The notes under the pieces were generated by a model. The model ran no database searches, was not told the origin of the DNA, and was given only the letters and a program-made list of their open reading frames with translations. The position numbers and the translations under genes are program-made. From the IMG/VR virus record IMGVR_UViG_3300045988_162923: a stretch of DNA of 64,000 nt; one strand, written 5' to 3'. Within the stretch, counting starts at the first letter, position 1. Every line of letters begins with the position of its first letter. Source of the DNA: a virus. Shown here piece by piece: positions 1-64,000 of this stretch.

Positions 1-1
1 T

Positions 2-472
2 CAATTTCTTACATTATTATTTCCAAATAAAAAAATATTATTTACTCCTAGAAGTATTATGCTTTAGGGAGAAGATAATACAAGTATAATTGATGAAAAT
101 AGTTTTGAGATATTACAATCTCTTACTAGAGAAATCTTTTGTGCTAAATCTAGTGCTTCGCAAGAATTAGGATTTAATCCTGCTAATGAGACAGCTAAAA
201 AAATTGCTGATAAACTAATGCGAGGGCGCTAGCGCGTTGCTGAATTAAATGGTAACGCTAATGCTAGTATATTTAGTTAGTATCTTTCAATGCTTACTGT
301 AGGTTTGAATTCTATGTCTCTACAGGATTTAATGGATTTAACAATGTTCCAACTTTTTGACCTTGTTGAGAGATATTAGCTTTATATTAATTGGGATATT
401 GATATCCGGTCTAGGTTGGCTGGCGCTAAGTCAGATAACAAGCCGGAAAATTGGATGAAAAATATCCATTAA
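2..472 (+). CDS. 3' end of a late/structural gene (partial at window edge), read with TAG as sense
   Basis: Frame 2 is open from the window start to TAA at 470-472 only if several in-frame TAGs are read through. An RBS and the next gene follow directly. Confidence 0.5.
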
Positions 473-495
473 ATTTATAAGGAGGAAAATAACCT

Positions 496-1494
496 ATGAA
501 ATTTGGTGTTCGTGAGATTTGCGATGTTGTTTTGAAGGCTAAAGCAGCTCAAAAGATCGGTAATAAAATCTTCTATAAGAATGAACCAGTTATCTATTTC
601 GATACATTAAAGACTTCTAGCATGGAAGGCGCAGCTACCACTGTATATGCTCAAGGTGGTCGTGGTAATGCTCGTTTAGTAGCTTGGGAAGGTGAAAGAA
701 CTGTTACTTTTACAATGGAAGATGCTCTTATCTCTCCAGAAGGCTTTATGATTCTTTCTGGTGCTGGTTTAATTGAAGCAAGTGCTACTAGCACTATTAA
801 ACAGCATATTACTGAAACTGTAGATAAGGCACAAATTGATAGTAAGACTACTGAGGGACAAGTTACTATTCGTGTTTCTAAAAAGCCTTATCTTCCAACT
901 AGTGAGCAAGAAAATTTTGCTTATGTTATGTTTGTTAAAGATGGCGAAATTATTTCTGAACCTTTTATTCCCGTCCATGAGGAGTTAACTGCTAAGAAAG
1001 ATACTAATGGCAATGAATATTTTGAATTGACTCTTAAAACTCCACATGATGATTATGTTGCTGGTACAGGTAATTATATTTTTAATGAAAATAATGGTCT
1101 TCCAGCAGCTACAGCATATGATAGTGCTATTGTTGATTATTATACTGAAAAGGCTAGCGGTGCGCAATAGATTGAAATTACTGCTGATAAATTCGGTGGT
1201 AACTATTATCTTGAGGCTTCTACCTTATTCCGTGATCAAAACGGTGTCGATATGCCTGCTGAATTTATAATTCCTAATTGTAAGATTCAGTCTAACTTTA
1301 CTTTCACAATGGCTTCTTCTGGCGATCCTTCTACTTTCACATTTACTATGGACGCATTTCCTGACTATACTCGTTTCGACCACAGTAAGAAAGTTCTTGC
1401 TGCTATTCAGATTATTGAGGAAGGCGGCGCTAGTGACATTCATAGAACTCAGACTGTTCATGATGCCAGTCACAACGCTCGTTTCACTGATTAA
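496..1494 (+). CDS. major tail (tube) protein candidate, 332 aa with one in-frame TAG at 1168-1170
   Basis: RBS AAGGAGG sits 8 nt upstream of ATG 496. Track ORFs 496..1170 and 1252..1494 share a frame and are separated only by TAG. The gene ends at TAA 1492-1494. The tail-protein call rests on its position upstream of the chaperone-like and tape-measure genes. Confidence 0.55.
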
Positions 1495-1497
1495 TTT

Positions 1498-1677
1498 ATG
1501 ATTATTAAAGGTAAGCATTGGGTTGTAAAGTCTGAACCTAGTGTTGAAAAGAAACCTGAAGTAATTAAGAAAGCAGAAAAAAAGGTAATCAAAGAAGTTC
1601 CGAAAGAAACAACAGTAGTTGAAGAAAAGAACGAATTAGATGAACTTTTATCTAAACTTGATAAAGAAAACAAGTAA
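1498..1677 (+). CDS. small Lys/Glu-rich protein (59 aa)
   Basis: ATG at 1498 lies just after the upstream TAA. The protein is MIIKGKHWVVKSEPSVEKKPEV... It ends at TAA 1675-1677 and is followed by a terminator. Confidence 0.5.
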   Translation: MIIKGKHWVVKSEPSVEKKPEVIKKAEKKVIKEVPKETTVVEEKNELDELLSKLDKENK

Positions 1678-1686
1678 ATAATATAA

Positions 1687-1717
1687 GGGAGAGGATTTAT
1701 TCCTCTCCCTTTATTTT
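1687..1717 (+). terminator. rho-independent terminator
   Basis: GGGAGAGGA-TTTAT-TCCTCTCCC hairpin followed by TTTATTTT. Confidence 0.7.
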
Positions 1718-1743: not shown

Positions 1744-2883
1744 ATGGTTTTATATAGTGATTCAGAAGATTATAGCGTAATTTTATAGCGAGTACATGAT
1801 CGTATAAAATTAAAAATGTATAGTCGTACTGCTAAAAAAGAAGCTAAAGAATTATAGACTATTTTATAGGAAATTAAATTAGCTGCTCATGATTTTGATA
1901 ATTTAAGCGATAGTTATATTGGTAATGAATTATATAATTAGTATTATGATCTAATTGATTAGGCGTTTAAAATCCAATCTGCTTATCATAATTCTAAATA
2001 GTTTTCCGCGCATACATTATTTAGAAGAGCGCATTATACAAGAAAAGATAAAAATGGTAAAATAGTTTCTTTAAAAAGTGGAGCTGATGATATTTTTGAA
2101 GAAGATTTGGCAGCATTATTGGCCGCTGGAGAATTTTTAGGAGGAAATGAAAATATTCAATTAGAATGTTTTCTTATGGGTGGTAAAAGTGCTTCCACAA
2201 AAGCAGTTGAAAAATATGATCCTCTTACAACAATATTTGATGATAATGGTACTAAAAAAAATGTAACTGACCTTTTGAAAGAATTAGCAGAAAAAGAATA
2301 GAAACGTATATCTACTTAGGTTCAAGGAGCTACAGGTAAAGTTGATATTAGCGGTAAAGCGGTAACTTTAAATTATTCAAAATAGTTACCTGGCAATGTA
2401 GAACGGTTAATGGAATTAATGAAAGATGCGACATTTTCTGCTAAAAACTATACTTCATACACCAATAATCTTGATATTAATAATAAAAAAGATTTGTCTG
2501 AAATTGGATTGCATTTAGGTAATACTAATTTATATAAAGCAGTTACTGGCGCTTTAAGTGAATTATAGATGGGCCATAAACAATAGACTAGATTTTTCTT
2601 TCGTGGTATGAATACTATTTTACATGATAAACATTCTTATGGTAGTATTACAGCTTAGCACTTTGCGCATTTAAGATTTGTATATGAACTAAGAGGCTCA
2701 GGCCTTTTAGATGAAAATGGGTTAGTTATGCCAGTTAAATATTTAATTTATAATGACCCAAATTCAGATGCTATATATGTAAAAGATACAGCATCAATTA
2801 TTTTAGAAGCATTAGATTCAGCTACTCGTTAGAATAATTTATTAGGTGATATTACATTAAGTGCTTCTAAAGTTGAATCTTGA
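1744..2883 (+). CDS. hypothetical protein between the tail-tube and chaperone/tape-measure genes (379 aa, about 10 in-frame TAGs)
   Basis: RBS GGAGGAAAT precedes ATG 1744. The frame is continuous to TGA 2881-2883 only with TAG read through. Track ORF 2107..2301 is an internal piece. Confidence 0.6.
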
Positions 2884-3602: not shown

Positions 3603-6600
3603 ATGCCAAAACAATTGAATGTGAATTTAGCTTTTACTGCGGATACCGGAACCGCACGAAGCTAGTTACAAGAGTTGTAGAACTCTTTAACTCGTTTGGT
3701 AAATACTTCTACTAAGCAATCAACTGGCTTAGGTTTAACAAAAGAATTAAATGATGCTACTACTGCGGCGGCTGAATTAAAAGTACATTTAGATTAGGCT
3801 GTTAATGTAAATACTGGTAATTTAGATTTTTCTAAATTAAGTGAATCATTGAAACGTAGTGGTAAGACATTATCTGAATATGGTGAACAATTATAGAAAT
3901 TAGGTCCAGATGGACAAAAAGCATTTTAGCAATTAACACAATCTATTACTAATGCTGAAATTCCTATTAAGCGTTCTAATGCTGCTGTATAGGAGTTATG
4001 GACTTCATTAAAGAATACTGCTCGTTGGCAAATGTCATCTAGTATGCTTCATGGATTCATGGGAGCCATTTAGTCTGCTTATGGGTATGCTAAAAATTTA
4101 AATGAATCTTTAAATGAAATCCGTATTGTTACTGGGCATAATATTGATTATATGGATAAATTTGCCGAAAAGGCAAATAAAGCCGCAAAAGCATTAAGTG
4201 CGACGACATTAGACTATACTAATGCTTCTTTGATTTACTATCAACAGGGTTTAAGTGACCAAGAGGTAGAAGATAGAACAGCAGTTACTTTGAAAATGGC
4301 TAATGTAGCTAATGAAAGTGCTACTACTATTTCTGAGCAATTAACTTCTGTATGGAATAACTTTTATGATGGTTCTGAATCTTTGGAACATTATGCTGAT
4401 GCGATGGTACGTTTAGGTGCTGATACTGCATCTAGTAGTAGTGAAATTTCAGAAGGTTTATAGAAGTTCTCCTCAGTTGCTGGTACTATTGGTTTAAGTT
4501 TTGATAATGCTGCAGCCGCTTTGGCAACTATTACAGCTACTACTCGTGAAAGTGCTGATGTAGTTGGTACAGCTTTAAAAACATTATTCTCTCGTATTCA
4601 AGGTTTGAATTTAGGATAGACATTGGAAGATGGTACTGACTTAAATAAGTATTCTACTGCTTTGCATAAAGTAGGTATAGAAATTAAAGACACTGATGGC
4701 CAATTAAAAGATATGGATATTATCTTAGATGAAATGGGTACTAAGTGGAATACTTGGAGTAGAGATACTCAAACTGCTTTAGCATAGACTGTAGCTGGTG
4801 TGCGTCAATATACTCAATTAATGACATTAATGAATAATTATGATTTTTATAAAGAGAATGTTGAACGCGCTAAGAATTCTGAAGGTTCTTTACAAAAACA
4901 AGCAGATATTTATGCTGAATCTTGGGAAGCTGCTCGCGACCGCGTGCGTGCCGCTTGGGAAGCTATTTATAAAGATTTGGTAAATGATAAAGCATTTATT
5001 TCTATTTTAAAGAATTTTGAAAAAGTTTTAAGTGGAGTAGATTTATTAATAAAATCTTTAGGTGGGTTAAAAGGAGTTATTTTCACTTTAGGGGCAATTG
5101 CAACGAAAGTTTTTCATAATCAAATTGCTTAGAGTCTTACTGATTTAAGTTATAATTTAAAATCTATGATTAAAGCAGGAAGAGAGTCTATTAAGAATGA
5201 ACGTATTGATTTTCTTAATAAAGCTTCTGAAACTACAGCTAATAAAGAATATTCAACAGAAGGCGAAAAAGCGCGTAATGATGGATTAAGAAAAGAATTA
5301 GAATTATAGATAGATATAATTGAAAATTCAGATAAGATGAGTGAATCTGAATTAAAAACAAATTAGATTTTATTAGATAGAATAAAAATTTTATCATAGC
5401 AAAGAGTTAAGATGGCTGAAGCTTATGAAACATCGAAAAATAAAGTCGGTGAATCAATGTATCAAGGCCGTCTTGATATGTATGTAGCTAGAGATGATAA
5501 AAATTTAGATAGCGAAAAAATTAAAAATTTAAATAAAGAATATTTAAATTTAACTTCTCGATTAAAAACTACAATTAAATTAAGAATTTCTACAAAAGAT
5601 GCTTTAAATTAGTTAAAAGGTATTAATGAAGAATTGTCCAATGCAGAACGAAAGAAAATGGTATTACAAACTATTATTCCAAATGATACTTAGGGTTTAA
5701 CTGCGGGAATAGTTAAAGATATACAAAAAATGGTTGAAAATCTTGATGAAGCAGCTTTTAGCGGAGATGAATTTGAAAATACTTTAGCAAAAATAGAAAA
5801 AGAATTAGTACGTATATAGACAGGCGCTGAAAATGGATTAGATGGATTATAGGTGTCTGATTCTACAATTCAAAATATGATACAACATTTACAAGAAATG
5901 TATCGTAATTAGAATAATTTAAATAATGGAACAGATGAGTTAAATTCAAAATATGAACATTTAAAAGAATTAATTAAATAGGCTTAGGGATAGCAAAAAA
6001 ATTGGGCAGATGGTATTGTTAATATTGCTAATTCTTTAAGTTCAATGGCTAGTATTTTTAATACAATTAAAGGAGTAATGGAAACTTTAGAAGATCCTGA
6101 TACCTCTTCTTGGGAAAAATTATCCTCTGTATTAATGGGTATTGGTACAATAATTCCTATGATTACTATGATGTTCAATAAAAATACAATCGCTTCATAT
6201 GCGGCAGCAGGAGCGCACATTGCTTAGGCTATTGGACTTAAAAGTATAAATTTGGCTGCTGAGGGAGCAACAGGAGCTATAGGAGCATTTACTGCTAGCA
6301 TTGGTGTTTTATTAGGTGCTGTAGCAGTTGCAGTTGGAGTTATTGCAGCTTTAGCTTTTATTATTAAAGAAGTATATAATTCTTCAGCAGAGGGAAAATT
6401 AAAAAAAGCTTAGTAGGCTTTAGATAATTTAACAGATGCTGCTACGGAAGCTAAAACTGCGGCTGATGGGTTAAAGAATTCAATAGAGTCTTATGATAGT
6501 GCTATAGATAAATTAGAAGAATGTAAGCGTGGAACCGAAGAGTGGAAATAGGCTTTAATTGAGGCTAATGATGCTGCTTTAGAAATTATCAATACTGCAT

Positions 6601-9600
6601 CAAATTTATCAGGAAATGACATAAGAAATTTATATTCTCGAGATAAAGATAATTTAATCCATTTTGATACAGAATAGTTATCTTAGTTATAGACTAATGC
6701 TACTTTACAAAGTTCATTGATGAATTATGCAGTTGCTGCAGGATAGAATGATGTTGCCTAGGCTACTTTAAATGAAAAAAGTTTAGATTTAAGCGGAATT
6801 ATAGCCGGGCATACTACAAAAGCTATCGAAGGAGGACAATCTCATAATCCAGATAGCTATAGACTAGGTACTTCAGAAGTATAGCAAATTATTTTAGATA
6901 ATTTAGATAAATTATCTGAATCTGTACCTTTAAATGAATTTAAAAATTATTTAGAAGAGTGTGGAATTAAACTACACAGTGTTACTGATGATTAGTTATC
7001 TGCTTGGCAAACAAGTATTTAGAATATGGCGCAAGAAGCAGATGGAGCATCTGCTAAATTAGAATTATTATCTTAGTTAAAAGCAGATGAAATTTTAGGT
7101 GATGATTATACCACTGACGAAAAGAATTTTGCTGCTAAAGCAAATGCAGCTTTTATTACTCAATAGGCGGATTATTATAAACGTTTAATGGGACATGATG
7201 GTGCTTTTACTGAAGTAAATTAGGCTCACCCAGATAAAAAAGTAGATTTAGGTGGTATTAATAGATGGTCTGGAAGTCAGAATGATGTTTATTAGTATAT
7301 TTTAAAAGCTTTATAGGAGTCTGGTTAGAATATTTATGCAGCTTCTAGTAATGCTATTCGAGGAACAGATACAAATCGTTCTTTTGCTTTTACTTAGAAT
7401 GGTGAAGAAATAGTTTATACTAAAGAAGAAATTGCTAATATGTTAGCAGCTTCTGATGCTATTTAGTAGATGGGCAATAGTGCTAGTAAGGCACGAGAGT
7501 TGCTTTCTAAATTTAGCGCAGATTCAATCGGTAAAGTAACCACTTTAGTTAATGATTTCAATTAGAAGACTAAAGAGTTCGATGTTACTTAGCTTATGGG
7601 AGAATGGGATTCTAAAATGTTAAATGAATTTTAGAATGCTATTGGCGATGAGACTAATGGAGTTAATGTTGCTGAAATAGTAACTAAAAAAATGGGTCTT
7701 ACTCCTGAAGAATTTAATAATATTTTAGACACTTTAGGAGTTGAAGATGCTGGAGCATAGTTTGGTTAGGCTATTTTAGATGGATTACAAGGAGTAGAAG
7801 ATTCTTTAAATCCAGAAACTTATTCTAAAAAATGGCGTGAGAATAGTACTGATACAGAAGGTAACAGCATATTAGCTGATTCATTTGATGAATTATTACT
7901 TAATGATGATAAAACAGGATTAAAGTATAATGGTATTAGCAGGAATTAGATAGCTGAATTTGCTTAGACTTATGAAGCAATTTTTAATAAATTTGGTACT
8001 GAAGGCTTAAATGTAATAGATAATTTACTTAATCAATTTGGCGATGAGGCTGGTAAAGTTGCTGGAGTTATTGGCGATATTGACTGGTCTAGTGACACTT
8101 CTTTAAAAGATTTTCAATCCGCATTAAATAATGTTGGAGTTACTACAGCGGGTATAGATTTAAGTAAATTTATTACTTAGATGGATGAAATTTATAAAAT
8201 TGCTGATTCAGATGCTTTATCCAAAGCATAGTCTAATTTTAAAGAAATAAATGATATAGTAAAAAATCTTAAATTAGGAGATACTATTTCACCAGAAAAT
8301 TATGCTAAATTGGGTGATGGAGCTGATTAGTATTTTACTAAAATGGCCGATGGCACTTATAAATTGACTACAGATACTAAAGCTTTTTATGATATTGTTA
8401 TGCGTCAAAGACGCGATGAATTTACATAGGCTTATAAAGATGCTTAGTCTAAAGCTATGGAATTACAAACATAGAAAGAAAATGCTACTCAAGCTTTACA
8501 AGGAACAACTACAGAGGAATTGGGTAAATCAGCTTATAAAGTTGATGATAATTCATATAATGGTTTTAAAGTAAAATAGTAGCTGAATTTCTTATAGGCT
8601 ATGGGTTATGACCAAGGGAAGATTGACAATTGGGCTGCTGATGCTGAAAATGGTCAAATGTATAAAGATACTTTAAATGAAATTGCTGGAGCTGTCCGCA
8701 ATATGACAATAGAGTATGAAAATTTAGATTCAGCAAGGGAAAAAGAAAATAATACCGCAGAAGAAGCTAAAACAAATATTTTAACTACTGTAACTTCTAT
8801 TAAAGATTTGAAAAATGAAATTGCTTCTAATGATATATTAGGAGAAGAAGATTATGGTAAAGGTCTTAGCTTATTAGCTTTATAGTATGAAGAATGTAAA
8901 GACGCTTATACTAATTATGTTAATGTTGTAAAAACTGGTAATCCTTATTTAATAGAATAGGCAAAAAAAACTTTAGAAGAGTCTATTAGAGCATAGGAAG
9001 TTTCTAAATTAGGAATAGAAACTTTAGGAGATTTAGCTAAAGCATAGCGTAAAGGTTAGATCACTAAAGATGATATTAATGCGTATGATAATATAGCGAA
9101 AAAAACCTTAAAAGGTCAATAGGCATTGGCTACTTATAATAAAGAAATGGCCAATGCTCGAAAAGGTACTGACGATGCCACTAAAGCTGCTTAGAAATAT
9201 AAAAGAGCTATTGAAGAAATCGAAGTAACTGATTTAGCAAGTGATATTAATAACTTAATGACTGAGTTTAGTAAACTTACTAAAGAAGAACAAGAAGGCG
9301 ATAAAGGTTTTGATAAACTTACTTCAATTGCTGAAAATTTAAAAGATATTTTTGGAGCAGATTTTGATTATTATGATGCTAATTTTGTTAAGGGACATTG
9401 GGATTTAATTAAATAGTATTTAACAGGAACTTTAGATGAATAGCGCCAGGCTTCCATTGAATTAGCTATGTTAGGTAAAACTAATACTTAGACTATGACT
9501 GAAGCAATTAGTAATTCATTTGCTGAAGTTGGTGTAGATGCTAGTCAATGTACTGGATTAATCCAACAGGTAGAATCTACTTTACAAAATGCTAATTTTA

Positions 9601-12600: not shown

Positions 12601-12800
12601 CTTCTGAGATTGATTTACGCAGTAGATATACTACAATGCCAATTAATCCAATTTACAGCACTTTTGGAACTGGTAATGATATATTAGAACAATAGGTTCA
12701 TATTGATGCTAGCTTCCCGAATGTGACTGATAGGAATGAAATTCAAGAAGCATTTAATACATTAATTAATGTAGCTTCACAATATGCTAATCGTAAATAA
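3603..12800 (+). CDS. tail tape measure protein, about 3065 aa, with roughly one in-frame TAG per 30-40 codons
   Basis: RBS AAAGGAG precedes ATG 3603. Track ORFs 4152, 4800, 5412, 6045, 8601, 9495, 10587, 11019 and 12186 all share this frame. Every interruption I read was TAG, never TAA or TGA. The gene ends at TAA 12798-12800. It has a coiled-coil, Ala/Gln/Leu-rich composition and hydrophobic glycine-zipper segments at about 6000-6400, as tape measure proteins typically do. Confidence 0.85.
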
Positions 12801-26054: not shown

Positions 26055-26058
26055 TAAT

Positions 26059-26832: not shown

Positions 26833-26840
26833 AATAATTA

Positions 26841-38413: not shown

Positions 38414-38426
38414 GAGGTGAGATTAT

Positions 38427-39145: not shown

Positions 39146-39178
39146 TGGGAGAGGTATATCCTCTCCCATTTTTTTTGT
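39146..39178 (+). terminator. rho-independent terminator
   Basis: GGGAGAGG-TATAT-CCTCTCCC hairpin followed by ATTTTTTTT. Confidence 0.75.
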
Positions 39179-39207
39179 TATATAAATAAATTTGAAAGGA
39201 GAATTTC

Positions 39208-40860: not shown

Positions 40861-40876
40861 TAGGAGTTAATTAATT

Positions 40877-52220: not shown

Positions 52221-52751
52221 TTATTTAGACGTAGAACCAAAGCCTCCGAGTCTATTCCCTGTGGCATTATCATCATCAGTAATCTCATACTTTTTAATAA
52301 TGCCTTGTCCAATTACATCACCTTTATGTAATTGAATATTATATGGAGAGAGATTAATTAATTGTAAGAAAATCTCTCCTTCATTATCAGGATTATTATA
52401 ATAGTCAGAATCAATAATACCCACACTATTAGCTAAAATTAGCCAATACTTTAAAGGAGTAGAACTGCGCACAGATAATTCCAAATAGCAACCAGGGTCT
52501 AATTGACATTTAACTCCAGTAGAAACAAGAGTAGGCTTTGCGCCTGTAGCCTTAGTTAATGCCGCTGTTTCTTTCAAATCAAAGGTTGAAATATAAGTTG
52601 TATATTCACTATCTAATGCTTTAATATGATTTATTACCGGCGGCACACAAATATCTTCCGCAACAGTTAAATCATAACCCGCGGAATTCGCGGTTTTTCG
52701 AACGGGAAGAACCGCATCAGGAAATTTTGAAACTCTTTCAAATCTATTCAT
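52221..52751 (-). CDS. dut: dUTPase
   Basis: Intact 176-aa ORF with the motifs SAGYDL, GIIDSDY and C-terminal RLGGFGSTSK. Its ATG overlaps the upstream gene's stop as TAATG. Confidence 0.8.
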   Translation of the reverse strand: MNRFERVSKFPDAVLPVRKTANSAGYDLTVAEDICVPPVINHIKALDSEYTTYISTFDLKETAALTKATGAKPTLVSTGVKCQLDPGCYLELSVRSSTPLKYWLILANSVGIIDSDYYNNPDNEGEIFLQLINLSPYNIQLHKGDVIGQGIIKKYEITDDDNATGNRLGGFGSTSK

Positions 52752-53835: not shown

Positions 53836-53864
53836 ATTATAACAAAAAATTTTAAAGTCGTCAA
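53836..53864 (-). promoter_or_regulatory. consensus promoter TTGACG-17-TATAAT on the minus strand
   Basis: The minus strand reads TTGACG (plus 53859-53864), a 17-nt spacer, then TATAAT (plus 53836-53841). It lies upstream of the gene starting at 53805 and overlaps the 3' end of nrdG. Confidence 0.55.
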
Positions 53865-54346
53865 TTTTTATCTGATTTTAAATAAATAATATGCTAATTT
53901 TTACTTCCACGCATGGGTAATGATACATCTCTTTGCTCTTGGATATATGGACCATCAATCAAGACATCAATACTGCTAAGGATTTCTTGAAGTTTTCCAT
54001 TATCTTTTTGTTTAATTAAATCATCATAATAATATCCAGTCCATACATAAATTTTTGTATTAGGGAGTTTTTCTTTTATAGTACGAACCAAAAGTAAAGT
54101 AAGTAATTGATTCTTTTCACATAAAGGTTCTCCACCCATAATACAAAAATTTCGATGAATACCATTTGCCTATAATGCTTGAGTAATTTCAGTAAATATA
54201 TCACTCGTAAATTCTTTACCACCATCAAAATCCCATGTTTCAGGGTTATGGCATCCTTCACAATGATTAGGACAACCTTGAACAAAAAATGATACACATA
54301 CTCCCGGGCCTGCGGCAATATCATTTTTTATAATTCCTGCGTATTT
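53861..54346 (-). CDS. nrdG: anaerobic ribonucleotide reductase activating protein NrdG
   Basis: It reads ...GIIKNDIAAGPGVCVSFFVQGCPNHCEGCHNPETWDFDGGKEF...IMGGEPLCEKNQ...WTGYYYDDL...GSKN(Q)HIIYLKSDKN. The radical-SAM CxxxCxxC motif is there, two TAGs are read through, and it ends at TGA 53861-53863. No in-frame ATG exists upstream of the conserved N-terminus. The likely initiator is ATT at 54346-54344, 7 nt after GGAGGA. Confidence 0.65.
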
Positions 54347-54352
54347 AATAAG

Positions 54353-55015: not shown

Positions 55016-55359
55016 TCCATAACCTCCCAAGAACAACAATATAAACTACAGCAAGGAATAATTATTTTTTTTAATATTTCTTCATTATTATAATTTTTAG
55101 ATATTTTTACTTTATAAAGTCTATAACCTTTAGTATTCCAGGTTATAGGTAACCATATCCATCGCTCATTATTTTCTTGCCATTCTATACGAGTTTTTGA
55201 TACTCTGATTGGTATAATATTATTTTTATTTAAATAATTATAAATTTCTTGTGAATTGTCGGTTATATAAGCACATACCACTATCTAATTAGAACAAGGA
55301 TATTTTCTTCCTTGTTGCTAATTAAAATAGTTTGCTAAATCATAAATTAGCTATATCAT
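55012..55359 (-). CDS. Trp-rich hypothetical protein (115 aa)
   Basis: ATG 55359-55357 overlaps the nrdD terminal TGA as ATGA. It has three TAGs and ends at TGA 55012-55014. Confidence 0.45.
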
Positions 55360-57617
55360 TCCATCTACCCCGTATGTTTTACTCGTGCTTCTACTTCTTT
55401 TTGTTTACCATAGTTAAAAGCAGTTTTATAGTTTCCAGTTAAATAACCGGTTACACGGCGCAGCTATTGAATATTAGAACTGCCGCATTCAGGACATTTA
55501 TCATTAAATTCATCACAGTATCCGCAATCAAGACAAGTATCATTAGGCACGTTTACTGCGAAATAAGGAATATCCTTATCCATGGCATAATTAACAATTT
55601 GTTCAAGGGCTTTAATGTTATGTTTTACTGTTGAATCTAATTCTACATAAGTAATACAACCAGCAGAGGAATAACCAGTTAATTGGCTTTCAATATCAAT
55701 TTTATCAAATGGTGACATCTTTTCCCATACAGGAACATGAATACTATTAGTAAAAAATTCTTTATCTGATACATTCTTAATAACACCATATTTTTCTTTG
55801 AACTTATTCATAGCAGTATAACAAAGGTTTTCCGCAGGAGTATAATATACACCAAAATTAAGCTTATATTTCTCCTTAAATTCTGCGCAACGACGTTTAA
55901 ATAATCCTTCAATGCGCTTAGCTAGTTCCATACCTTCTTTAGTTGTCTGGTCTTTACCAATAAGAATTTGAAGGGCTTCAGCAAGACCAATCTACCCGAT
56001 AGCCAAAGTACCATGTTTAAGCGCACTTCTAATCCCTTCTTCTGGAATATAGCCAGCCATTAAATGATTCTCATACATAAACTTAGCAGATTTCGGGTCT
56101 TGAGAACAAATCCATTCAAATCGTTCCATCAATTGAATTCTTGCTTCATTAATCTTTTGATCTAAAATTTCAAAGAAAGCTTCATCAACTTCCATACCCA
56201 TGATATGACATTCTTGATTTGCTATCATAGCTAAGGTAGGGAGAATAATAGTTACTGGACAAATATTACCACGACCATCTTTTAGCTAACCGAAACCATT
56301 AATATCGTATCCATTGGCTGTTCTACATCCCATTGTAGAAAAATAGGTGCGTGGGTCATTAATATCATATCCCGCATTTCCAGACCAATCAACATTTGCA
56401 TAGTTAGGATATAATCTTTGAGCGGTTGAGCGTAATGCGAGTTTAAATAAATCGTAATTTGGATCTCCTTCTTTACGATTAACACCTTCCATACACTGAA
56501 AAATTCCGCAAGGGAAAATAGATGTTTTATGTAATTTACCAATACCTTCAATGGACACATCCAAAAGTGCTTTAGTAATCATTCTTCCTTCTGGAAGAGT
56601 ACAAGTGCCATAATTAATAGAAGTAAATGGTAACTAATTACCTGAACGAGATTGTAAAGTATTAAGATTATGATACATACCTTCTACTGCTTGATGGACT
56701 TCTTTTAAAGTCATATCCATAGCATATTGATATACTTTATCAAAATCTCCAGCATCATCTACTTCATTTAAATAAGCTGAATAATCATTAATTGGAATAT
56801 CTATAATTTTTTTATAAGTATTACTATCTTCTAAATAATTATCTAAATCCCAATTACAATTACATAAGTATTTCATACCATCTCGATAATGCTTATAAAA
56901 AGATTTACGAACATAAGGAACCATAGTCCAATCAAGATGGGTCGCACTTACTCCTCCGAATTGAGAAAGGCTTTGAATTTGGAAAATAACAGCTACTAAT
57001 TGGAAAGCTGTATTTACTGAACCAGCTGGACGCACATCTGTCTAACGTGTATTAAATCCATTAGCAAGTAAATCATCAAAAGGAATACTTAAACAATTAT
57101 GAGAACCAACATAATAAGCATCAAGGTCATGAGTATAAATCATATTATTTAAATGATTATCTCTTGCCATTGGTGATAAGATATAATCTAAAGCTAATTG
57201 TTTAGTTACTACACTACTGGCTTCACCAATACGTCCGCCAAATGATGCTTCATCAACGTTAGCATTTTGATTTTTAATATCTTTACCATCAAGCTTTTTT
57301 CTAATGGCTTGAATAAAATCATCTTTCTTTTCACGAGCAACTTCTTTTTTATATCTATATCTAATATATGCACGAGCTACATCACGACGCTCAGAGCGCA
57401 TCAAATAATCTTCAATCCAATCTTGGATATCTTCTACCCCTACGCTACCATCAGGGAAATGATTTGCTTGACGTTCAATGTCATTAGCGATATCTTGAGC
57501 AGTATCATTTTCATAAAGCTATCCATCAACTTCAATAAATGCTTTATTAATAGCATTAATAATTTTATTTTTATCAAATAAAACAATTGTGCCGTTGCGC
57601 TTTATAATATAAATCAT
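55356..57617 (-). CDS. nrdD: anaerobic ribonucleoside-triphosphate reductase NrdD (about 753 aa, about 6-7 in-frame TAGs)
   Basis: RBS GGAGGAATATAA precedes ATG 57617. The N-terminal ATP-cone reads MIYIIKRNGTIVLFDKNKIINAINKAF. Track ORFs 57042..57404, 56634..57035, 56286..56582, 55992..56228 and 55464..55931 all share the frame. The C-terminal Zn-ribbon and glycyl-radical motif read ...CLDCGYCDEFNDKCPECG...LRRVTGYL. It ends at TGA 55356-55358. Confidence 0.8.
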
Positions 57618-57685: not shown

Positions 57686-58258
57686 TTAATTAAATCCGTC
57701 TGTCCAATCGCGGATTTGCCTTCCCATAGCATATACAGCGGGATAAAAATCTTTTTTAATTTCATTATTAATAGTAGTATAATTAAAATCTGATAAATCA
57801 GAAAAATCAATTTCATCTGCTTTAAAACGTCTAAATATTTCTTCAATATTAGGATCGCTTTCTCGACTTAGCTGACGAATTAATCTTTCTTTATCTGAAG
57901 CTTCAATATAGAATACTTTTAAATCAATACGAGAATCTTTCATTAAGCTTTCAACTCCCGCAGGGTTAAATACTCCAATATTAATTTTGTTTTCATTTAA
58001 TGAATTAATGGCAGTACCATACCCCCAAGAGTTAAATACTGTCGCTTCTAACATTTTATTTTCTAATACTAATTGAGAAAATTCTTCATTAGAAACATAA
58101 TGATAATTAATTCCTTCTTGCTCTCCTTCTCTAATTGGACGAGTAGTATAACTAATTATTTCATTTAAATTTTTTTCGGTGTCATGGTGAAGGATAGCCT
58201 TCATAAGACTATCCTTCCCGCTTCCCGCTTTGCCCATAATGGCTACAATTTTATACAT
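57686..58258 (-). CDS. gmk: guanylate kinase-like nucleoside monophosphate kinase
   Basis: Intact 190-aa ORF. P-loop GKAGSGKDS and the guanylate-kinase signature TTRPIREGEQEGINYHYVSNEEF are present. Its ATG follows the DnaE TAA by 3 nt. Confidence 0.7.
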   Translation of the reverse strand: MYKIVAIMGKAGSGKDSLMKAILHHDTEKNLNEIISYTTRPIREGEQEGINYHYVSNEEFSQLVLENKMLEATVFNSWGYGTAINSLNENKINIGVFNPAGVESLMKDSRIDLKVFYIEASDKERLIRQLSRESDPNIEEIFRRFKADEIDFSDLSDFNYTTINNEIKKDFYPAVYAMGRQIRDWTDGFN

Positions 58259-61200
58259 CTTCTTCTATTCCTCCCTGATAACGAGTATTACGTAATGTAA
58301 TAGTTCCATCATCAAAAATTTCATCAATTTTATATAACTGGTGACCAGGAGAAGAAGCATATTTTTTAGCTATAAAATTATCTCCTTGGCGCACGCCCAT
58401 AACTACAATCATATTTCCTCGGTTGAACCAGGACTTTTCAACGATATGCTTTACTCCATCCGATCCTTTTTCTGAAATTTGTTTATCAAATAAACTGAAA
58501 TATTCTTTTCTGAATTTTACTTCAACAGGACCAGTAGTAGTAAGAATAGTAACAGTACTTTTAGTTTTATTTTTAGCAATACACGTACCGCAGATTGTAT
58601 TTAATTTATAAATATGAATCGTTTTACCACCTTTAGTGAAACTTCTATCTACTTCTGGTTCTTGCGGAAGAGCAAAGAAATCTGCGAATCCATATTTTTT
58701 ATTATTAATGTCTTTTAATTCGTGATTGTGGTAATAGAAGCAAAGCACTTCCATTTCCCATGCTGATAAATTATTTTTACCAGTATATTTATTCCAATCT
58801 TCTTTGAAAATAACTGCGTTTAAATTTTCAAGAATTTCTGTTTTATTCTCATTAATCCAATCGCGGAATACATCCATCCAAGGTTGATAGACTTTTTTAT
58901 CCCATATTTTTTGGTCTAACTTCGCGCCCTCTTCAATTAAATTATCTTCACCAATTTCAACTAAGAAATTAATTGCTCTCATATCTAGTTTATAAAAACT
59001 TGCTGTATCTTTACAAACTGCTTTTAAATATCTATTAAATTCAAAAACACGACGAGCCATAATTTGTTTATCAGTATCTTCTGGTAATAATTTATATTTA
59101 ATTAAGCTACTCATATTCTGTAAAGTAATACGACTCTTTTTATCACAAGTTTCCCAAATATACCAGCCCATTAATAATTTTCTATCCATCATATTATCAA
59201 AAGCACCGCCTTTAATAAGAGATACCATAGCTTGTTTACTAGGCTTAATTTTATATAAAAAATCTTTTGGAGAAATATATGGACGGTTAGTAATAATAGT
59301 ATTAACTAAATCATCACCAACATTTAACATTCCTTTTAATCCAAAAAGAATTTTATTATTTTCAATGTCAGGAGCAAAACCAAACTTAGATTTATTAATA
59401 TCTGGCAAACCGATTTCAATACCTGCTTTTTGAATATCACTAATAGCTTTAGCAATTTTTCCATAATCAGTTGAAGCAGTTCTTCTAATTTTTGCGCTCT
59501 TATCTGGTAAATCTTCAAATGTTACACCATTTGCTAAATCGTCACCTTCAGGAGCATAAATATCGACTAGCTCTTCTTCCGTATTATCTTCCAATGAACC
59601 ACTATTAACAATTAAACAAGCGGTATCCCAATAAATAGGATTATAATTTATTACTAAATAAATCATTTGAATTGCTACAAAAGAATAAGGTAAAGAATGA
59701 TTTAAACTAAAAGCATAACCTAATTGTGGAGCAACCGCAATTTCCCAGAAGTATTCAGCAACTTTAGGATTATCAAATTTACTGAATACTTGCTCTTTTA
59801 ATTGCGGGATTTTTGACATTTGTTTTTTAGCAACAACTTTACGAGCACTATTTGCTTCGCCTAAAGTAAATCCCGCAATATCCATGAGGATTTCCATCAT
59901 TTGTTCCTGAATAGGACAACAACCATAGTATTTATCACAATGCTTATGAAATTTATCAATCAAATCTTGTGGTAAATGATTTTGCTTCATTTCAGCATCA
60001 AATACTTGAATACCTTGATGCTGAATTCGATAATATCTATCTTGCTGAGATTCTTTGCCTTTTTCAGACATTAAACGCATCATAGCATTTGCTGCCGTCA
60101 TTTCCATAGGATCTTGCGGTTTTAGCCTCTTAGCAATTGCTAATCCAACTCCAGTAGAGAACTGGAATACATCAAGTACATCGCCTGCCGCCAAGTGATC
60201 CCAAATACGTTGATCTGTTGTGTCTATCACTTCTGGATGAATATACTTATTATAAAATTCTCTTAAAGGTAAGTCAGGAATTTGATTATCTTTTAATAAT
60301 AATTGATAACAAGTAATTATTTTATCAGAAGCTTCAGTTACAAGGAAATCATATTTAGTATCGCCAGCCGCTTCCGCTTTATGCAAATCATAACAAGTGA
60401 TAATATCACCACTGGGAGTGCGCATAAAAGATGCTGTTTCAAATGGGTCATCACCATATAAAATAACGCCAGAAGCATGAGAAGAACGTTTATTAATAAT
60501 ACCTTCAATATAAATAATAATATCTAATAAACCATCATATTGATTTACTTCTCTAATAAAAGCTTGAATTGGCTTGCGGTCTTTTTCTTCATTGCCATAA
60601 ATAACATCATGGATTGGCCATAAAAATCCTCTTTCTTGAGGAATTAGAGAAGACATATATTGTGCTTGATCATTATCAATACCTTCTGGAAAATCTTCTG
60701 ATCTATATCCACGGCAAGCTGTTAATACCGCAGATTTAGTTCCTTCAGTACCAAATGTAGCAACTTGGACTAAGCCTAAATCACCACGTTCATCACGAAT
60801 TGCTTTAAAAATAGCAGGACGCTTACTTGGCGCAAGATCAATATCAATATCAGGTAATTCAGCACGTTCTTTATTTAAAAAACGCCAATAAGGTAAACCC
60901 CAACGAATAGGATCAAGCTGTGTAATACCTAATAAATAATTAGATAAAAAACCTGTTGCTGAACCACGGCCAGGACCTACAATAGAACCACATTTCCAAA
61001 ATAAATCAATATAATGTTTAAAAGTATTAAAATAAGCAAACAAACAATCATCCAATTTTTCACCAATATCTTTAATAATATCAGCTTCAATTTCAAGACG
61101 ATTTAAATAAATATCTAACTTATCATCTGAAATACTTTTATCATACATCTTTTCTAATAAAGACATATAACATTCATTAACCCAATATCTTTCCTATGGG

Positions 61201-62246
61201 TTATCACTCATTAATAAGCTACATAAAATAGGATATTTTTCTGTGCGCTCAAACCAACCAGCTAATGATTGAGGATAATCAGTTACTTCTACTTTTGGAA
61301 TAATTTGCTTTCTTTCTAAAGAATAAAAAGAAATTTTACTTTGAATTTTTTGAGTATTATCTAAAATCCAATCTAAAATTTCTTTTCCTGATTTATTACT
61401 ATCCCAAGTGTTAGCATCATTTTCCATTAATTCAAAGATTTCATCGCTTGTCATTAAATGCGCAAATTCATAGAAAGTATCAACTTCTCGTTCGCCTTCT
61501 TTAGAATTTAAATACGCTTTATGAATTGCTCTATCTTCTTTTGTTAAATAATGAGAGTCAGTACCAATTACCATTTTCAATCCAGTAGATTGAGATATTT
61601 TATAAATTTGTCTATTAACAATCATCTGGTCTTCTTTATTAGAAGGCGCACACTCAAGATAAAAATCATCTTCACCAAATACTTCAATACAATAATTAAT
61701 AAAATCCATTATTTGAATTGAATAATTAGTTACTGTATTTTGGTCATTAACTAAATTAGCTTCATACATTGGAAGTAAACAACTACCAAGTTCTCCACCA
61801 ATACAAGCTGTAGTAGCAATAACATGACCTTTATATTTAGACATTACATCTTTTAATTCGCTTTTTAAAGTAGGAACACGTTCCATACGTCTATCAACAT
61901 AACTATTAATCCAAGCAATAGAACTTAATTCTCTTAATGCTTTATGACCAATAGCATCTTTAGCTAATAATAAAAAGTGATAATATTTTTGTCCAGTTTG
62001 ACGAGTTTCAGTTAAATAGATTTCATTACCAAGTGCGATAGTAAAATCAGGATTTGTTTCCTATAATTTCTTCGCATATTGATTAACTTCCATATGCGCA
62101 GATAAGCATTCATGGTCAGTAATTGCTATTCCAGATAAACCTAATTCGATAGCTTTATCAATTAATGCTTGAGGACGATTAATTGAGTCTAATAGTCTAA
62201 TATTAGAATAATGAGTGTGATTATGAATACCAAAGTAACTTCTCAT
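58251..62246 (-). CDS. dnaE: DNA polymerase III alpha subunit (DnaE-type replicative polymerase), about 1331 aa with two in-frame TAGs
   Basis: Track ORFs 62061..62246 (PHP start, HNHTHYS), 61194..61886 and 58251..61166 share one frame. They are separated only by TAG at 62061-62063 and 61194-61196. RBS GAAAGGATAATTAA precedes ATG 62246. It ends at TAA 58251-58253. Confidence 0.85.
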
Positions 62247-62291
62247 TTAATTATCCTTTCTTATATTTCTATAAATATTATAACATAATTT

Positions 62292-62562
62292 TATAAAAAA
62301 ATCAATAATAGCAATTATCTAAATAGCGATCACAAACCTATCTTATATCACGTACAAAATTTTCAAGTTTATGGTCAAGCATTTGATGATTAATTGAATT
62401 AGTAACAATTTTGCCGTCTAAATCCTATAATTCATTATTTACCTTTTTAATAGTTTCTGCGATACTACCTCTTAATGTATTCATCAAATTTTCATCTTTT
62501 AAAAACATATTACTATTTAACATAGCAACTAAAGATGAATCAAGCATTGAATTATCTATCAT
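62292..62562 (-). CDS. hypothetical protein (about 89 aa, two TAGs)
   Basis: RBS GGAGTAATTAAT precedes ATG 62562. It ends at TGA 62292-62294. Confidence 0.45.
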
Positions 62563-62678
62563 ATTAATTACTCCAATTCAAAATGTACCTACTAACGTCA
62601 ACTAATTATATGAATTTTTTAACAATGTAGGAACCATAATAATATCAAAATCAATAGTTAAAATAATATTTTTTATAA

Positions 62679-63872
62679 TCATTTCTTTACAATAACAATT
62701 TTTTCTTTCGCTCTAGTCACCATAGTATATAAATACTATGTATGTGTTAATTTATCATGTGGATGCCCTTCTTCAAACCCTAATACTTTATCGTATTCAC
62801 TTCCTTGTGCCTTCCAACAACTAATAGCATAAGCATAAGCAAAATCAAAAGGAGGATCTGGACACATCTAATTTTTTCTCATTTTATAGCATTGTGGTCC
62901 AGTTAAAGTAGCCTAGCCACTTTTTAATTGTTCATAATCAATAGGGACATCTTGGAAATAATCTCCATCTTCTAGGTCAAAAGTAGCATTCATATAAATA
63001 ATTGGTTTATCATAAATATACAAAGGTACTCTTTCAACTGTATTATAATAATTAGTTAAAGTACCAATCATACCATTTGTTAAAGCCCAAGTTCCAGAAG
63101 CAGAAGAAAAATCCCAATTATTATGTAAACTAATAATTTTATCACCAATTTCTGGTTCATCAGATGTAAAGCCTTTTAATTTTCTGACAGTTTGATTTAA
63201 TAAAGTTCTTCTATCATTAGTCGCACAAATGATTTGGTCTGCCCATTCATACATTCCTTCTCGAAGCTAAGACAAATTAATAATCATAACCTAATTTCCA
63301 TCAGGTTTATAAGAGTAGATAGGCTTTCCATCTCTAATCCACATTGACAACCGAATAATTTCGCTATCTTGCGCTTGCCGCATAATTTCATCTAAGAAAA
63401 TATGGGGTTTATCTAAAACATGGTTATTATCTGCTTCTTCTATTGGAGGTAGCTAACCGGGGTCTCCAGCTGCTATAATATAAATACCATGACTTAATAA
63501 AAGATGCCACATAGCTGAAGGAAGCATAGACACTTCATCAACTACAATTACTTTATATTGAGATAATTCTTCATTAGATTTTGGAGTAAATTTATATCTT
63601 CCATTCGGTAGCATACGAGCTTTATATAATAATTTATGAGCTGTAGTAGCATTAGGACATCCTTTCTATTGAAGAACAGTAGCAGCTTTTCCTGTAAAAG
63701 CAACATAGCATACTTCTGTTTCTGGATCAACATCTAAAGCTGAAATAATAAATTTAATTAAAGTACTCTTGCCACTTCCTGCATAACCCGCTATGCAAGT
63801 CCAACGTTCATGGTTTTTATATCTTTCAACAGCAATTTTTAATCCCTATTCTTGTTTCGCAGTTAAAATCAT
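62679..63872 (-). CDS. Dda/RecD-like SF1 DNA helicase (about 397 aa, seven in-frame TAGs)
   Basis: Walker A AGYAGSGKST, Walker B VVDEVSM and motif III AAGDPG(TAG)LPPI are present. The TAG in motif III sits at the invariant Gln. Track ORF 62913..63254 is an internal piece. It ends at TGA 62679-62681. Confidence 0.75.
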
Positions 63873-63876
63873 AATT

Positions 63877-64000
63877 AATCATGTTCTCCCATTACTTCGT
63901 CAAGGATTTGAATAAAACGCATTACATCTCTTTCATAAAGGGATTTAGCTGTTGAAAGGCTCATTCCTTCATGCACATCAACTTGTATTGCTTTATATCG
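63877..64000 (-). CDS. 3' end of an upstream minus-strand gene (partial at window edge)
   Basis: Open frame ...FIQILDEVMGEHD ends at TAA 63877-63879, just before the helicase ATG. Confidence 0.4.

What the first reader, a model, noticed from the sequence alone, without database searches (positions are those of the whole stretch)
1..64000. Genome-wide reassignment of TAG from stop to sense (most likely Gln, code 15)
Under the standard code almost every gene in the window is cut into many short ORFs. Under TAG-as-sense they join into long, single-frame genes that are interrupted by TAG only and never by TAA or TGA. These genes end cleanly at TAA or TGA next to an RBS and the next start. Examples are 3603..12800, where I read several kb codon by codon, and 12917..18199, 28644..36383, 58251..62246 and 55356..57617. 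Long TAA/TGA-free frames cannot arise by chance in sequence this AT-rich. The element is therefore a stop-codon-recoded phage of the kind reported in gut and oral metagenomes, and it should be annotated with table 15.
Basis: seen in the sequence. Interest (0 to 1): 0.9.

Follow-up and report, generated by a model that had tools for sequence, protein, structure and literature searches.

The report
Gut phage reading TAG as glutamine
This 64-kb stretch comes from a roughly 200-kb human-gut bacteriophage whose genes use the stop codon TAG as a glutamine codon; this is a real but already described kind of genetic-code change, and it matters mainly because the genome must be annotated with code 15.

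Summary
With TAG read as sense, 36 long frames tile the window. They hold 20,196 codons with 362 in-frame TAG and no TAA or TGA. The longest frame is 3,065 codons, against at most 296 in simulated sequence. NrdD, DnaE and the tape-measure protein match their families end to end across TAG codons.

TAG means glutamine. At 150 TAG sites aligned to relatives, Gln fits best by 38 log-likelihood units. All six strongly conserved columns are Gln, including the invariant Q of helicase motif III.

The window is identical to a 200,327-bp human-gut scaffold. It belongs to a large family of phages of about 195 kb. Members of this family use the standard code, TAG recoding or TGA recoding.

TAG use follows gene module. 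It supplies about half of the Gln codons in virion genes, about a quarter in replication genes, and 1-4% in early or auxiliary genes of the sister genome.

No CUA tRNA lies in the window or in about 179 of 201 kb of a sister genome. TAG-recoded relatives do carry one. The unseen 22 kb is where relatives hold the main tRNA cluster.

Verdict: an ordinary code-15 phage, a new member of a known kind. Side finding: a conserved, circularly permuted tRNA-Tyr-like gene in the lineage.

The parts
2..472 (+). 3' part of a virion-module gene (244 aa in the sister genome) with 4 in-frame TAG
   Evidence: The TAG at residue 77 aligns with Gln in 53 of 65 relatives. PHROG 4051.
496..1494 (+). Virion or tail structural protein (332 aa) with 1 TAG
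   Evidence: PHROG 2729, E=2e-55. The TAG at residue 226 aligns with Gln in 76 of 79 relatives. 316 relatives in IMG/VR.
1744..2883 (+). 379-aa protein of unknown function with 13 TAG and only 4 CAA/CAG
3603..12800 (+). Tape-measure protein, 3,065 aa, with 107 in-frame TAG
   Evidence: PF10145 PhageMin_Tail, positions 1-201 of 201, E=1.7e-26, spanning 3 TAG. ATG start with an AAAGGAG ribosome-binding site; TAA stop.
12917..18199 (+). 1,760-aa tail fibre or spike protein with a C-terminal intramolecular chaperone; 38 TAG
   Evidence: PF13884 Peptidase_S74. TTG start after AAAGGAGG.
18357..23529 (+). Two tail or baseplate proteins (959 aa and 771 aa) with 12 and 15 TAG
   Evidence: PHROG 32343 and PHROG 1887 'tail protein'.
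23892..28523 (+). Three fibre-like proteins. The 26119-26832 frame has no TAG.
28644..36383 (+). 2,579-aa virion protein with 40 TAG
36653..46873 (+). Seven further virion or receptor-binding-like genes with 4-17 TAG each (43877-46060 is DUF6273)
46888..47277 (+). Holin with 2 TAG
   Evidence: PHROG 13712 holin, E=5e-35.
47324..47974 (-). Response-regulator receiver-domain protein with 1 TAG in the 216-aa product (the stop-to-stop frame 47324-48040 has 2)
   Evidence: PF00072; residue strings; stop-to-stop count.
48251..50814 (+). Four small genes of unknown function with 1-6 TAG each
51154..51597 (-). 147-aa protein with no TAG
   Evidence: PHROGs 4105 and 4257.
51675..52187 (-). RuvC-like resolvase with 5 TAG
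   Evidence: PF02075. TAG at residues 93 and 116 aligns mostly with Gln.
52221..52751 (-). dUTPase with no TAG
   Evidence: PF00692. An exact-sequence look-up of this protein identified the source scaffold.
53861..54352 (-). NrdG-like activase with 2 TAG
   Evidence: PF13353, E=7e-39. The TAG at residue 153 aligns with Gln in 42 of 42 relatives.
55356..57617 (-). Anaerobic ribonucleotide reductase NrdD, 753 aa, with 7 TAG
   Evidence: PF13597 positions 2-562 of 562, E=4e-145. PDB 8p23, E=1e-124. TAG at residue 192 aligns with Gln in 46 of 49 relatives, and at residue 328 in 44 of 46.
57686..58258 (-). Guanylate-kinase-like nucleotide kinase (190 aa) with no TAG
   Evidence: PF00625.
58251..62246 (-). 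DnaE-type DNA polymerase III alpha, 1,331 aa, with only 2 TAG
   Evidence: PHP, DNA_pol3_alpha, finger and HHH_6 domains..
62679..63872 (-). RecD/Pif1-like SF1 helicase, 397 aa, with 8 TAG
   Evidence: AAA_30 and UvrD_C_2. The TAG in motif III (GDPGxLPP) aligns with Gln in 20 of 20 relatives.

Best explanation
The window is part of a lytic-type tailed phage genome of about 200 kb from the human gut. Its genes are written in genetic code 15: TAG is a glutamine codon, and only TAA and TGA end genes.

The most likely working model is as follows. A tRNA with anticodon CUA, charged with glutamine by host enzymes, inserts Gln at UAG in competition with the host's release factor 1. Genes needed first carry few or no TAG codons, so an untouched standard-code host can translate them. 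These include NAD salvage genes, RNA ligase, topoisomerase and DnaE. Virion, tail-fibre and lysis genes carry TAG at about half of their Gln positions. They can therefore be completed only once suppression is in place, which ties late-gene expression to the code switch.

What is shown: TAG is sense; TAG equals Gln by homology; the gradient of TAG use between gene modules; and CUA tRNAs in TAG-recoded relatives. What is inferred: that this genome carries its own CUA tRNA (probably in the main tRNA cluster that I could not read); which enzyme charges that tRNA; how RF1 is outcompeted; and the regulatory role of the gradient.
For: TAG is sense.
- 362 in-frame TAG against 0 TAA or TGA in 20,196 codons; the longest frame is 3,065 codons against at most 296 in simulations.
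- End-to-end family matches cross the TAG codons.

TAG is Gln.
- A profile likelihood over 150 sites favours Gln by 37.9 nats.
- All six conserved columns at TAG sites are Gln, including helicase motif III and NrdD residue 328, where both PDB homologues have Gln.
- Standard-code relatives alone give Gln in 8 of 10 conserved columns.
- TAG+CAA+CAG make up 4.2% of codons, a normal Gln content, against 2.4% without TAG.

Independent assemblies.
- The window is identical over 20,531 nt to ENA scaffold_10.
- Near-identical genomes exist in two other human-gut assemblies.
- The public gene calls for this scaffold read TAG as sense, and the Q-for-TAG product of a relative in the family (647 aa, from L412) is stored as an exact sequence in the public collection.

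Gradient of TAG use.
- TAG/(TAG+CAR) is 0.48 in plus-strand virion genes and 0.23 in minus-strand replication genes.
- It is 0.01-0.04 in the 10-30 kb early or auxiliary region of the sister genome.

Suppressor tRNAs in relatives.
- L357, L360 and L330 carry one.
- L426 carries one as the last of 24 tRNAs.
- phAss-1 carries three.
- In L357/L360, L330, L426 and two of the three phAss-1 suppressors the acceptor end has U1 and G73, as in bacterial tRNA-Gln (sequences; the identity rule is from my own knowledge); the 91-nt phAss-1 tRNA starts with A1. By overall sequence similarity, tRNA-Gln ranks at or near the top for L330, L357 and L360, but this evidence is weak.
Against: No tRNA of any kind lies in the window.

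No CUA tRNA lies in about 179 of 201 kb of the sister genomes NODE_13 and k127_103588. At the slot upstream of tRNA-Leu(UAA), where the relatives L357 and L360 carry the CUA tRNA, this lineage has none.

No release-factor-like gene was seen, but the only test was a crude motif search.

There are no protein-level data. The regulatory meaning of the gradient is an inference. Some highly expressed virion genes also avoid TAG: the major capsid protein of the sister genome has 0 and the tail protein has 0-1. So expression level, and not only timing, may shape TAG use.
Confidence: 0.9

Rival explanations
1. TAG is sense but encodes another amino acid, such as Lys, Glu, Tyr, or pyrrolysine as in code variants that use Pyl.
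For: At variable columns TAG aligns with many residues: E, K, D and A are common. NrdD site 542 aligns with Leu or Tyr in many relatives and with Phe or Tyr in the PDB homologues. ARAGORN labels CUA tRNAs 'Pyl' by default.
Against: Gln beats Lys by 37.9 nats and Glu by 43.6. Every strongly conserved column at a TAG site is Gln (6 of 6; 8 of 10). Tyr and Phe each make up 2% or less of aligned residues. No pyl genes were seen.
Confidence: 0.04
2. The phage simply matches a host that itself reads TAG as sense, so there is no code switch during infection.
For: The host is unknown. The window alone cannot exclude this.
Against: Early and auxiliary genes of the sister genome almost completely avoid TAG, which is expected if they must be read in the standard code. 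Close relatives use the standard code or TGA recoding. No bacterium with TAG=Gln is known (own knowledge). Proteins of this lineage are binned with Clostridium/Clostridiales MAGs, and the tail protein's relatives infect Firmicutes.
Confidence: 0.03
3. The fragments are pseudogene remnants of a decaying element, or the TAG codons are an assembly, sequencing or base-modification artefact (for example CAG read as TAG).
For: Under code 11 nearly every gene is broken.
Against: Only TAG interrupts the frames; TAA and TGA never do. There are no frame changes within family matches. The same TAG positions recur in relatives (336 TAG-to-TAG alignments). Independent assemblies from different studies agree. 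CAG codons still occur (56 of them). TAG density tracks gene module.
Confidence: 0.01

Closest known systems
TAG-to-Gln (code 15) recoded gut phages: Ivanova et al. 2014 (own knowledge); Borges et al., bioRxiv 10.1101/2021.08.26.457843; experimental validation in crAss-like phages, PMC9523058
   Same: In-frame TAG aligns with Gln. Structural and lysis genes are heavily recoded, while use in replication genes varies. Relatives carry suppressor tRNA-CUA. Single clades mix codes 11, 15 and 4. Genome size falls in the 150-210 kb range that the preprint gives for its Jade, Sapphire and Agate clades. The habitat is the human gut.
   Different: I could not test membership of a named clade, because no reference sequences were at hand. 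No CUA tRNA has been found so far in this lineage's 179 kb examined, and no RF2 gene was seen.
phAss-1 / proposed Phassvirus group (OQ749652; PMC10607447)
   Same: Human-gut tailed phage with TAG=Gln. Tape-measure protein above 3,000 aa. NrdD, NrdG, dUTPase and holin are present, as is an NAD-salvage block (NAMPT, PRPP synthetase, nicotinamidase). Virion genes lie on one strand and replication genes on the other.
   Different: The genome is 136 kb rather than about 200 kb. The tail protein is only about 50% identical over 63% of its length. phAss-1 has two CUA tRNAs directly beside NrdD, and 36 tRNAs adjoining the NAD genes. Here neither site holds them. This is a distant relative, not a member.
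Standard-code Firmicutes phages with a homologous tail protein (Enterococcus EF1/VRE9-type, Lactococcus AM1/949-type, Bacillus phages)
   Same: The tail or virion protein is 31-41% identical over about 90% of its length. Genomes are large (120-140 kb).
   Different: They use the standard code, and the relationship is much more distant.
Code-15 crAss-like phages (Crassvirales)
   Same: The same codon reassignment and the same habitat.
   Different: The virion module is different. This phage has a 3,065-aa tape-measure protein and long-tail genes and a DnaE-type polymerase. It is not a crAss-like phage.

Membership tests
Code-15 (TAG=Gln) recoded phage | Conserved genes are interrupted in frame by TAG only, never by TAA or TGA | tested here: met
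   Family matches cross the TAG codons.
Code-15 (TAG=Gln) recoded phage | TAG positions correspond to Gln in homologues | tested here: met
   Gln is best by 37.9 nats, and 6 of 6 conserved columns are Gln.
Code-15 (TAG=Gln) recoded phage | Phage-encoded suppressor tRNA with anticodon CUA | tested here: inconclusive
   None in the window. None in about 179 of 201 kb of the sister genome. Present in the TAG-recoded relatives L357, L360, L330 and L426. The unread 22 kb is where relatives hold the main tRNA cluster.
Code-15 (TAG=Gln) recoded phage | Uneven use: late structural and lysis genes recoded, early genes readable in the standard code | tested here: met
   TAG/(TAG+CAR) is 0.48 in virion genes, 0.23 in replication genes, and 0.01-0.04 in the early or auxiliary region of the sister genome.
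Code-15 (TAG=Gln) recoded phage | Gln actually incorporated at UAG (proteomics) | not testable with these tools
   Needs metaproteomics of the sample or an infected culture.
Code-15 (TAG=Gln) recoded phage | Accessory code-change genes (RF2, aminoacyl-tRNA synthetase); these occur in some clades only | tested here: inconclusive
   A motif search (GGQ plus SPF/PxT) over ORFs of the window and 15 loci of the lineage and two more distant relatives (L424, L426) found no candidate. This is a crude test, and 22 kb remain unread.
phAss-1 / Phassvirus | Genome of about 133-138 kb with at least about 80% nucleotide identity and conserved synteny, including CUA tRNAs beside NrdD | tested here: not met
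   Megablast of window 40000-64000 against the phage collection found no match. The tail protein is 50% identical. The genome is 200 kb. There is no tRNA beside NrdD.
Jade / Sapphire / Agate clades of Borges et al. | Placement in the clade by terminase or whole-proteome phylogeny | not testable with these tools
   Only genome size and code mixing could be compared.
Crassvirales | crAss-type podovirus virion module and polymerase set | tested here: not met
   A long tape-measure protein and a DnaE polymerase. The tail protein's relatives are phages of Enterococcus, Lactococcus, Bacillus, Clostridium and other Firmicutes.

The most novel reading that the evidence does not exclude
Beyond ordinary code-15 recoding, this lineage has no CUA tRNA at the slot upstream of tRNA-Leu(UAA), where the relatives L357 and L360 carry one. 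At that slot it carries a conserved, circularly permuted tRNA-Tyr-like gene with its own promoter-like sequence.

If that RNA is processed into a working tRNA, either permuted or in two pieces, it would be, as far as I could find, the first permuted tRNA gene in a bacterial virus. A maturation route through the phage's RNA ligase is conceivable. The element might be linked to how this lineage manages decoding.

A weaker version of this reading is that the phage has no CUA tRNA of its own at all and depends on another route to read UAG.
Probability: 0.12. Interest if true: 0.75.

Novelty: new member of a known kind. Interest (0 to 1): 0.3.

Why it matters
Practical value: annotating this element with code 11 breaks 34 of its 37 larger genes, while code 15 restores a coherent phage of about 200 kb.

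Scientific value: the family is a dense natural series. Standard-code, TAG-recoded and TGA-recoded members share 60-96% identical tail proteins. That makes it a good system for asking how stop-codon reassignment arises and how it is tied to late-gene expression. The principle itself is already published.

The unresolved point is where, or whether, this lineage encodes its suppressor tRNA. That point and the permuted tRNA-like gene are the only parts likely to interest a specialist.

Tried and rejected
- Megablast of window 40000-64000 against GenBank phages found no match.
- A search for tRNAs beside NrdD, where phAss-1 has its suppressors, found none with a CUA anticodon in 48 relatives. One locus (L117) held 30 ordinary tRNAs and the other 47 held none.
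- An Rfam search at a permissive threshold found nothing tRNA-like in the window.
- I tried to find a repeated 16-mer that could fetch several regions of the genome in one scan; none exists.
- tRNAs of phAss-1 and of relative L117 share only generic arms, so no family-specific search pattern could be built from them.
- I walked the sister genome with all 8 viral scans, the one metagenome scan, and 3 cluster look-ups, 3 protein searches and 11 contig look-ups. This covered about 179 of 201 kb, and the last 22 kb could not be reached.
- Assigning an amino acid to the CUA tRNAs by overall sequence similarity gave only weak support for Gln.
- The permuted tRNA-like element was considered as a hidden suppressor or as a tmRNA. 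I rejected both readings for now: its anticodon loop reads GUA, it has no CUA, and there is no conserved tag reading frame.
- A release-factor motif search found no candidate.


Full report
OBSERVATION

The window is 28.9% G+C. Under the standard code, stop-to-stop frames of at least 100 aa cover 44% of it, and the longest is 980 aa. If TAG is read as sense the longest frame becomes 3,065 aa and the frames tile the window. Making TGA sense changes almost nothing.

The 36 TAG-sense frames hold 20,196 codons with 362 in-frame TAG. The other two reading phases of the same stretches hold 2,534 TAA and 1,575 TGA. In 100 first-order Markov simulations, the longest TAA/TGA-free frame averaged 153 codons and never exceeded 296.

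- They contain 107, 38, 40, 2 and 7 TAG.
- None contains TAA or TGA in frame.
- Each has an AGGAG-type ribosome-binding site before its start and ends at TAA or TGA.
- The start at 12917 is TTG.

ARE THESE REAL GENES READ THROUGH TAG?

Yes. The evidence is as follows.
- NrdD (55356-57617, minus strand) matches PF13597 over model positions 2-562 of 562 (E=4e-145). It aligns with the solved Prevotella NrdD (PDB 8p23) from residue 4 to 751 in one frame.
- The 1,331-aa frame has the four domains of a DnaE-type polymerase.
- The 3,065-aa frame has a complete PhageMin_Tail domain, as tape-measure proteins do.
- The next frame ends in a tail-fibre chaperone domain.
- Also present are NrdG, dUTPase, a RuvC-like nuclease, a nucleotide kinase, an SF1 helicase and a holin.
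No family match requires a frame change.

WHAT DOES TAG ENCODE?

The tail protein retrieved 316 relatives from IMG/VR. Of the 80 loci fetched, about 27 read cleanly in the standard code, about 50 need TAG as sense, and 3 need TGA as sense. Many NrdD relatives of about 130 kb also look TGA-recoded.

I used standard-code relatives alone first. The residues opposite the window's TAG codons fit the substitution profile of Gln best, and 8 of 10 strongly conserved columns are Gln.

With all relatives and all window genes there are 150 informative sites. Gln beats Lys by 37.9 and Glu by 43.6 log-likelihood units, and 6 of 6 conserved columns are Gln. Examples:
- Helicase motif III, GDPG-x-LPP: Gln in 20 of 20 relatives.
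- NrdD residue 328: Gln in 44 of 46 relatives and in both PDB homologues.
- NrdG residue 153: Gln in 42 of 42.
- Tail protein residue 226: Gln in 76 of 79.
TAG+CAA+CAG make up 4.2% of codons, a normal glutamine content, against 2.4% without TAG. So TAG means Gln, which is code 15.

WHERE DOES THE WINDOW COME FROM?

An exact look-up of the dUTPase protein found ENA scaffold NIEL14-1_SAMEA2042491_METAG-scaffold_10 (200,327 bp, human gut). It is identical to the window over all 20,531 compared bases. Near-identical genomes of 201 kb occur in two other human-gut assemblies. A 402-kb IMG/VR contig carries two copies of the conserved 310-aa protein used as a walking probe, spaced 193 kb apart, which suggests a unit length of about 193 kb.

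The public gene calls for this scaffold already read through TAG (NrdD 753 aa, DnaE 1,331 aa). A protein with Q substituted for TAG, taken from a relative (L412), is an exact member of the public protein collection.

The only described relative I found is phAss-1. It is 136 kb and its tail protein is about 50% identical. NCBI files it under 'Caudoviricetes code 15 clade'. More distant standard-code relatives infect Enterococcus, Lactococcus, Bacillus and Clostridium. Proteins of the lineage have been binned with Clostridium/Clostridiales MAGs. A Firmicutes host is therefore likely, but this is inferred.

HOW TAG IS USED

In the window, TAG supplies 48% of inferred Gln codons in the plus-strand virion genes and 23% in the minus-strand replication and nucleotide-metabolism genes. 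DnaE has 2 TAG in 1,331 codons.

I walked the sister genome (NODE_13, which is IMG/VR 151351) beyond the right-hand end of the window.
- Next to the window come the primase, DnaB-like helicase and RecJ-like genes, which still carry TAG at 0.2-0.3 of Gln codons.
- Beyond them, the topoisomerase and ligase block has TAG at about 0.12-0.13 of Gln codons.
- A block of NAD-salvage, RNA-ligase and other auxiliary genes has TAG at only 0.01-0.04.
This is the pattern Borges et al. describe: structural and lysis genes are recoded, and early genes are readable by the host. The major capsid gene of the sister genome and the tail protein also avoid TAG, so expression level may matter as well as timing.

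THE SUPPRESSOR tRNA

The window has no tRNA. phAss-1 has three CUA tRNAs, two of them beside NrdD. Of 48 NrdD relatives examined here, none has a CUA tRNA near NrdD, and 47 have no tRNA there at all.

Walking the sister genome found a small tRNA cluster holding Thr, Leu-UAA, Gly, Lys, Ala and Cys, with no CUA tRNA. At the homologous slot just upstream of Leu-UAA, the relatives L357 and L360 do carry a CUA tRNA; L330 carries one elsewhere in its own cluster, next to its Lys and Cys tRNAs.

Further walking through exact-protein look-ups covered about 179 of 201 kb without finding a CUA tRNA. The remaining 22 kb corresponds to the place where relatives hold the main tRNA cluster.
- A contig 97-99% identical in the two proteins compared shows the cluster's first two tRNAs.
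- A relative about 84% identical in the 633-aa flanking protein shows 15 tRNAs running off the fetched stretch.
- A TAG-recoded relative about 74% identical in the AAA-ATPase gene inside the cluster shows 24 tRNAs. The last is a CUA tRNA immediately before the Mtd_N-type fibre genes.
The family's CUA tRNAs and two of phAss-1's three have U1 and G73 at the acceptor end, as tRNA-Gln does (the identity rule is from my own knowledge).

I therefore think it likely (about 0.7) that the window's genome encodes its own suppressor in the unread stretch. This is not shown. No release-factor-like gene was seen (a crude test).

RIVALS

- Another amino acid is disfavoured by the likelihoods and by the conserved columns.
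- Pseudogenisation or an artefact is excluded by several facts. TAG is the only interrupting codon. The TAG sites are conserved among relatives. Independent assemblies agree. TAG density follows gene module.
- A host that itself reads TAG as sense is unlikely, given the TAG-free early genes and the standard-code sister phages.

COMPARISON AND NOVELTY

This is a code-15 phage of the kind described by Ivanova et al. (own knowledge), by Borges et al. and by Babkin et al. for phAss-1. The reassignment has been validated by metaproteomics in crAss-like phages (abstract seen).
- It is not a Phassvirus, given its genome size, its low identity and the different tRNA placement.
- It is not a crAss-like phage, given its long tape-measure protein and DnaE polymerase.
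- Its size (about 200 kb) and the mixing of codes 11, 15 and 4 resemble the large clades of Borges et al. I could not test clade membership.
I rate it a new member of a known kind, with interest about 0.3.

SIDE FINDING

The side finding lies outside the window but in the same lineage. Between tRNA-Thr and tRNA-Leu(UAA) of the sister genome (L355 8668-8802) lies a conserved element that reads as a circularly permuted tRNA. Its parts, in order, are:
- an anticodon arm (loop CUGUAAA, or CAGUAAA in the closest genomes; anticodon GUA, Tyr), a long variable region, the T arm, the 3' acceptor strand and CCA;
- a 6-7-nt linker;
- then the 5' acceptor strand and the D arm.
It has a promoter-like sequence upstream, and its leader and trailer are complementary to each other.

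In 14 relatives, 96% of the cells of the permuted cloverleaf form pairs. Three pairs show compensatory changes, one each in the leader-trailer helix, the inter-half stem and the T stem. Shifted controls fall to 55% or less. ARAGORN and Rfam do not call the element.

It sits exactly where the relatives L357 and L360 carry the CUA suppressor. I found no paper on permuted tRNA genes in phages. Its function is unknown. It has no CUA anticodon, so I do not claim it decodes TAG.

Noticed in passing
L355 8668-8802 (sister genome NODE_13 / IMG/VR 151351); also L356 7341-7475, L350 12061-12194, L303 1602-1734, L310 769-900, L314-L323 at about 4350-4550, L348, L338, L316: A conserved, circularly permuted tRNA-Tyr-like gene. 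The order is anticodon arm (GUA), variable region, T arm, 3' acceptor strand and CCA, then a 6-7-nt linker, then the 5' acceptor strand and D arm. It has complementary leader and trailer sequences and its own promoter-like sequence. 96% of cells pair and three pairs show compensatory changes. ARAGORN and Rfam do not call it. It occupies the slot upstream of tRNA-Leu(UAA) where L357 and L360 carry the CUA suppressor.
   Followed up: partly
Loci L001-L080 and L098-L145: One phage family (tail protein 60-96% identical) contains standard-code, TAG-recoded and TGA-recoded members. Examples of TGA recoding are L011, L021 and L068, and many relatives of about 130 kb found through NrdD, such as L103-L113.
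   Followed up: partly
L426 8693-8765; L424 16300-16371; L423 11500-11571: Odd tRNA calls in the main tRNA cluster of relatives. One has anticodon UUA (it would read the stop codon TAA) in a TAG-recoded relative. Another is a 72-nt 'tRNA-Phe(AAA)' at the start of the cluster. These may be pseudo-tRNAs or miscalls.
   Followed up: no
window 55365-55367 (NrdD codon 751 of 753): NrdD carries a TAG two codons before its TGA stop, and 9 relatives have TAG at the same position. It would act as a harmless stop before any code switch and as a sense codon after it. TAG codons near gene ends are not enriched overall.
   Followed up: partly
window 53861-54352 (-): The public gene call for NrdG is only 92 aa. 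The Fer4_12 match and the CxxxCxxC motif need about 160 aa. That implies a TTG start at 54352, directly after the stop codon of the upstream gene.
   Followed up: partly
L121, L123, L126-L130, L134, L136, L137, L140, L143, L144 (match about 3.1 kb instead of 2.2 kb): The NrdD gene of several relatives is about 0.8-0.9 kb longer than in the window, which suggests an intein or intron insertion.
   Followed up: no
L082 12442-12532 (phAss-1): One of phAss-1's three CUA tRNAs is 91 nt long with a long extra arm, unlike the other two. Its amino-acid identity may differ.
   Followed up: no
L355 1504-7727; L412 13233-17588: A run of radical-SAM/SPASM-like and related genes, containing TAG, lies next to the small tRNA cluster in the sister genome and in relatives. 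Its function is unknown.
   Followed up: no
window 47324-47974 (-): A response-regulator receiver-domain protein is encoded on the opposite strand between the holin and the next late genes.
   Followed up: no
window about 51000: GC skew changes sign where the coding strand switches from plus (virion genes) to minus (replication genes).
   Followed up: no
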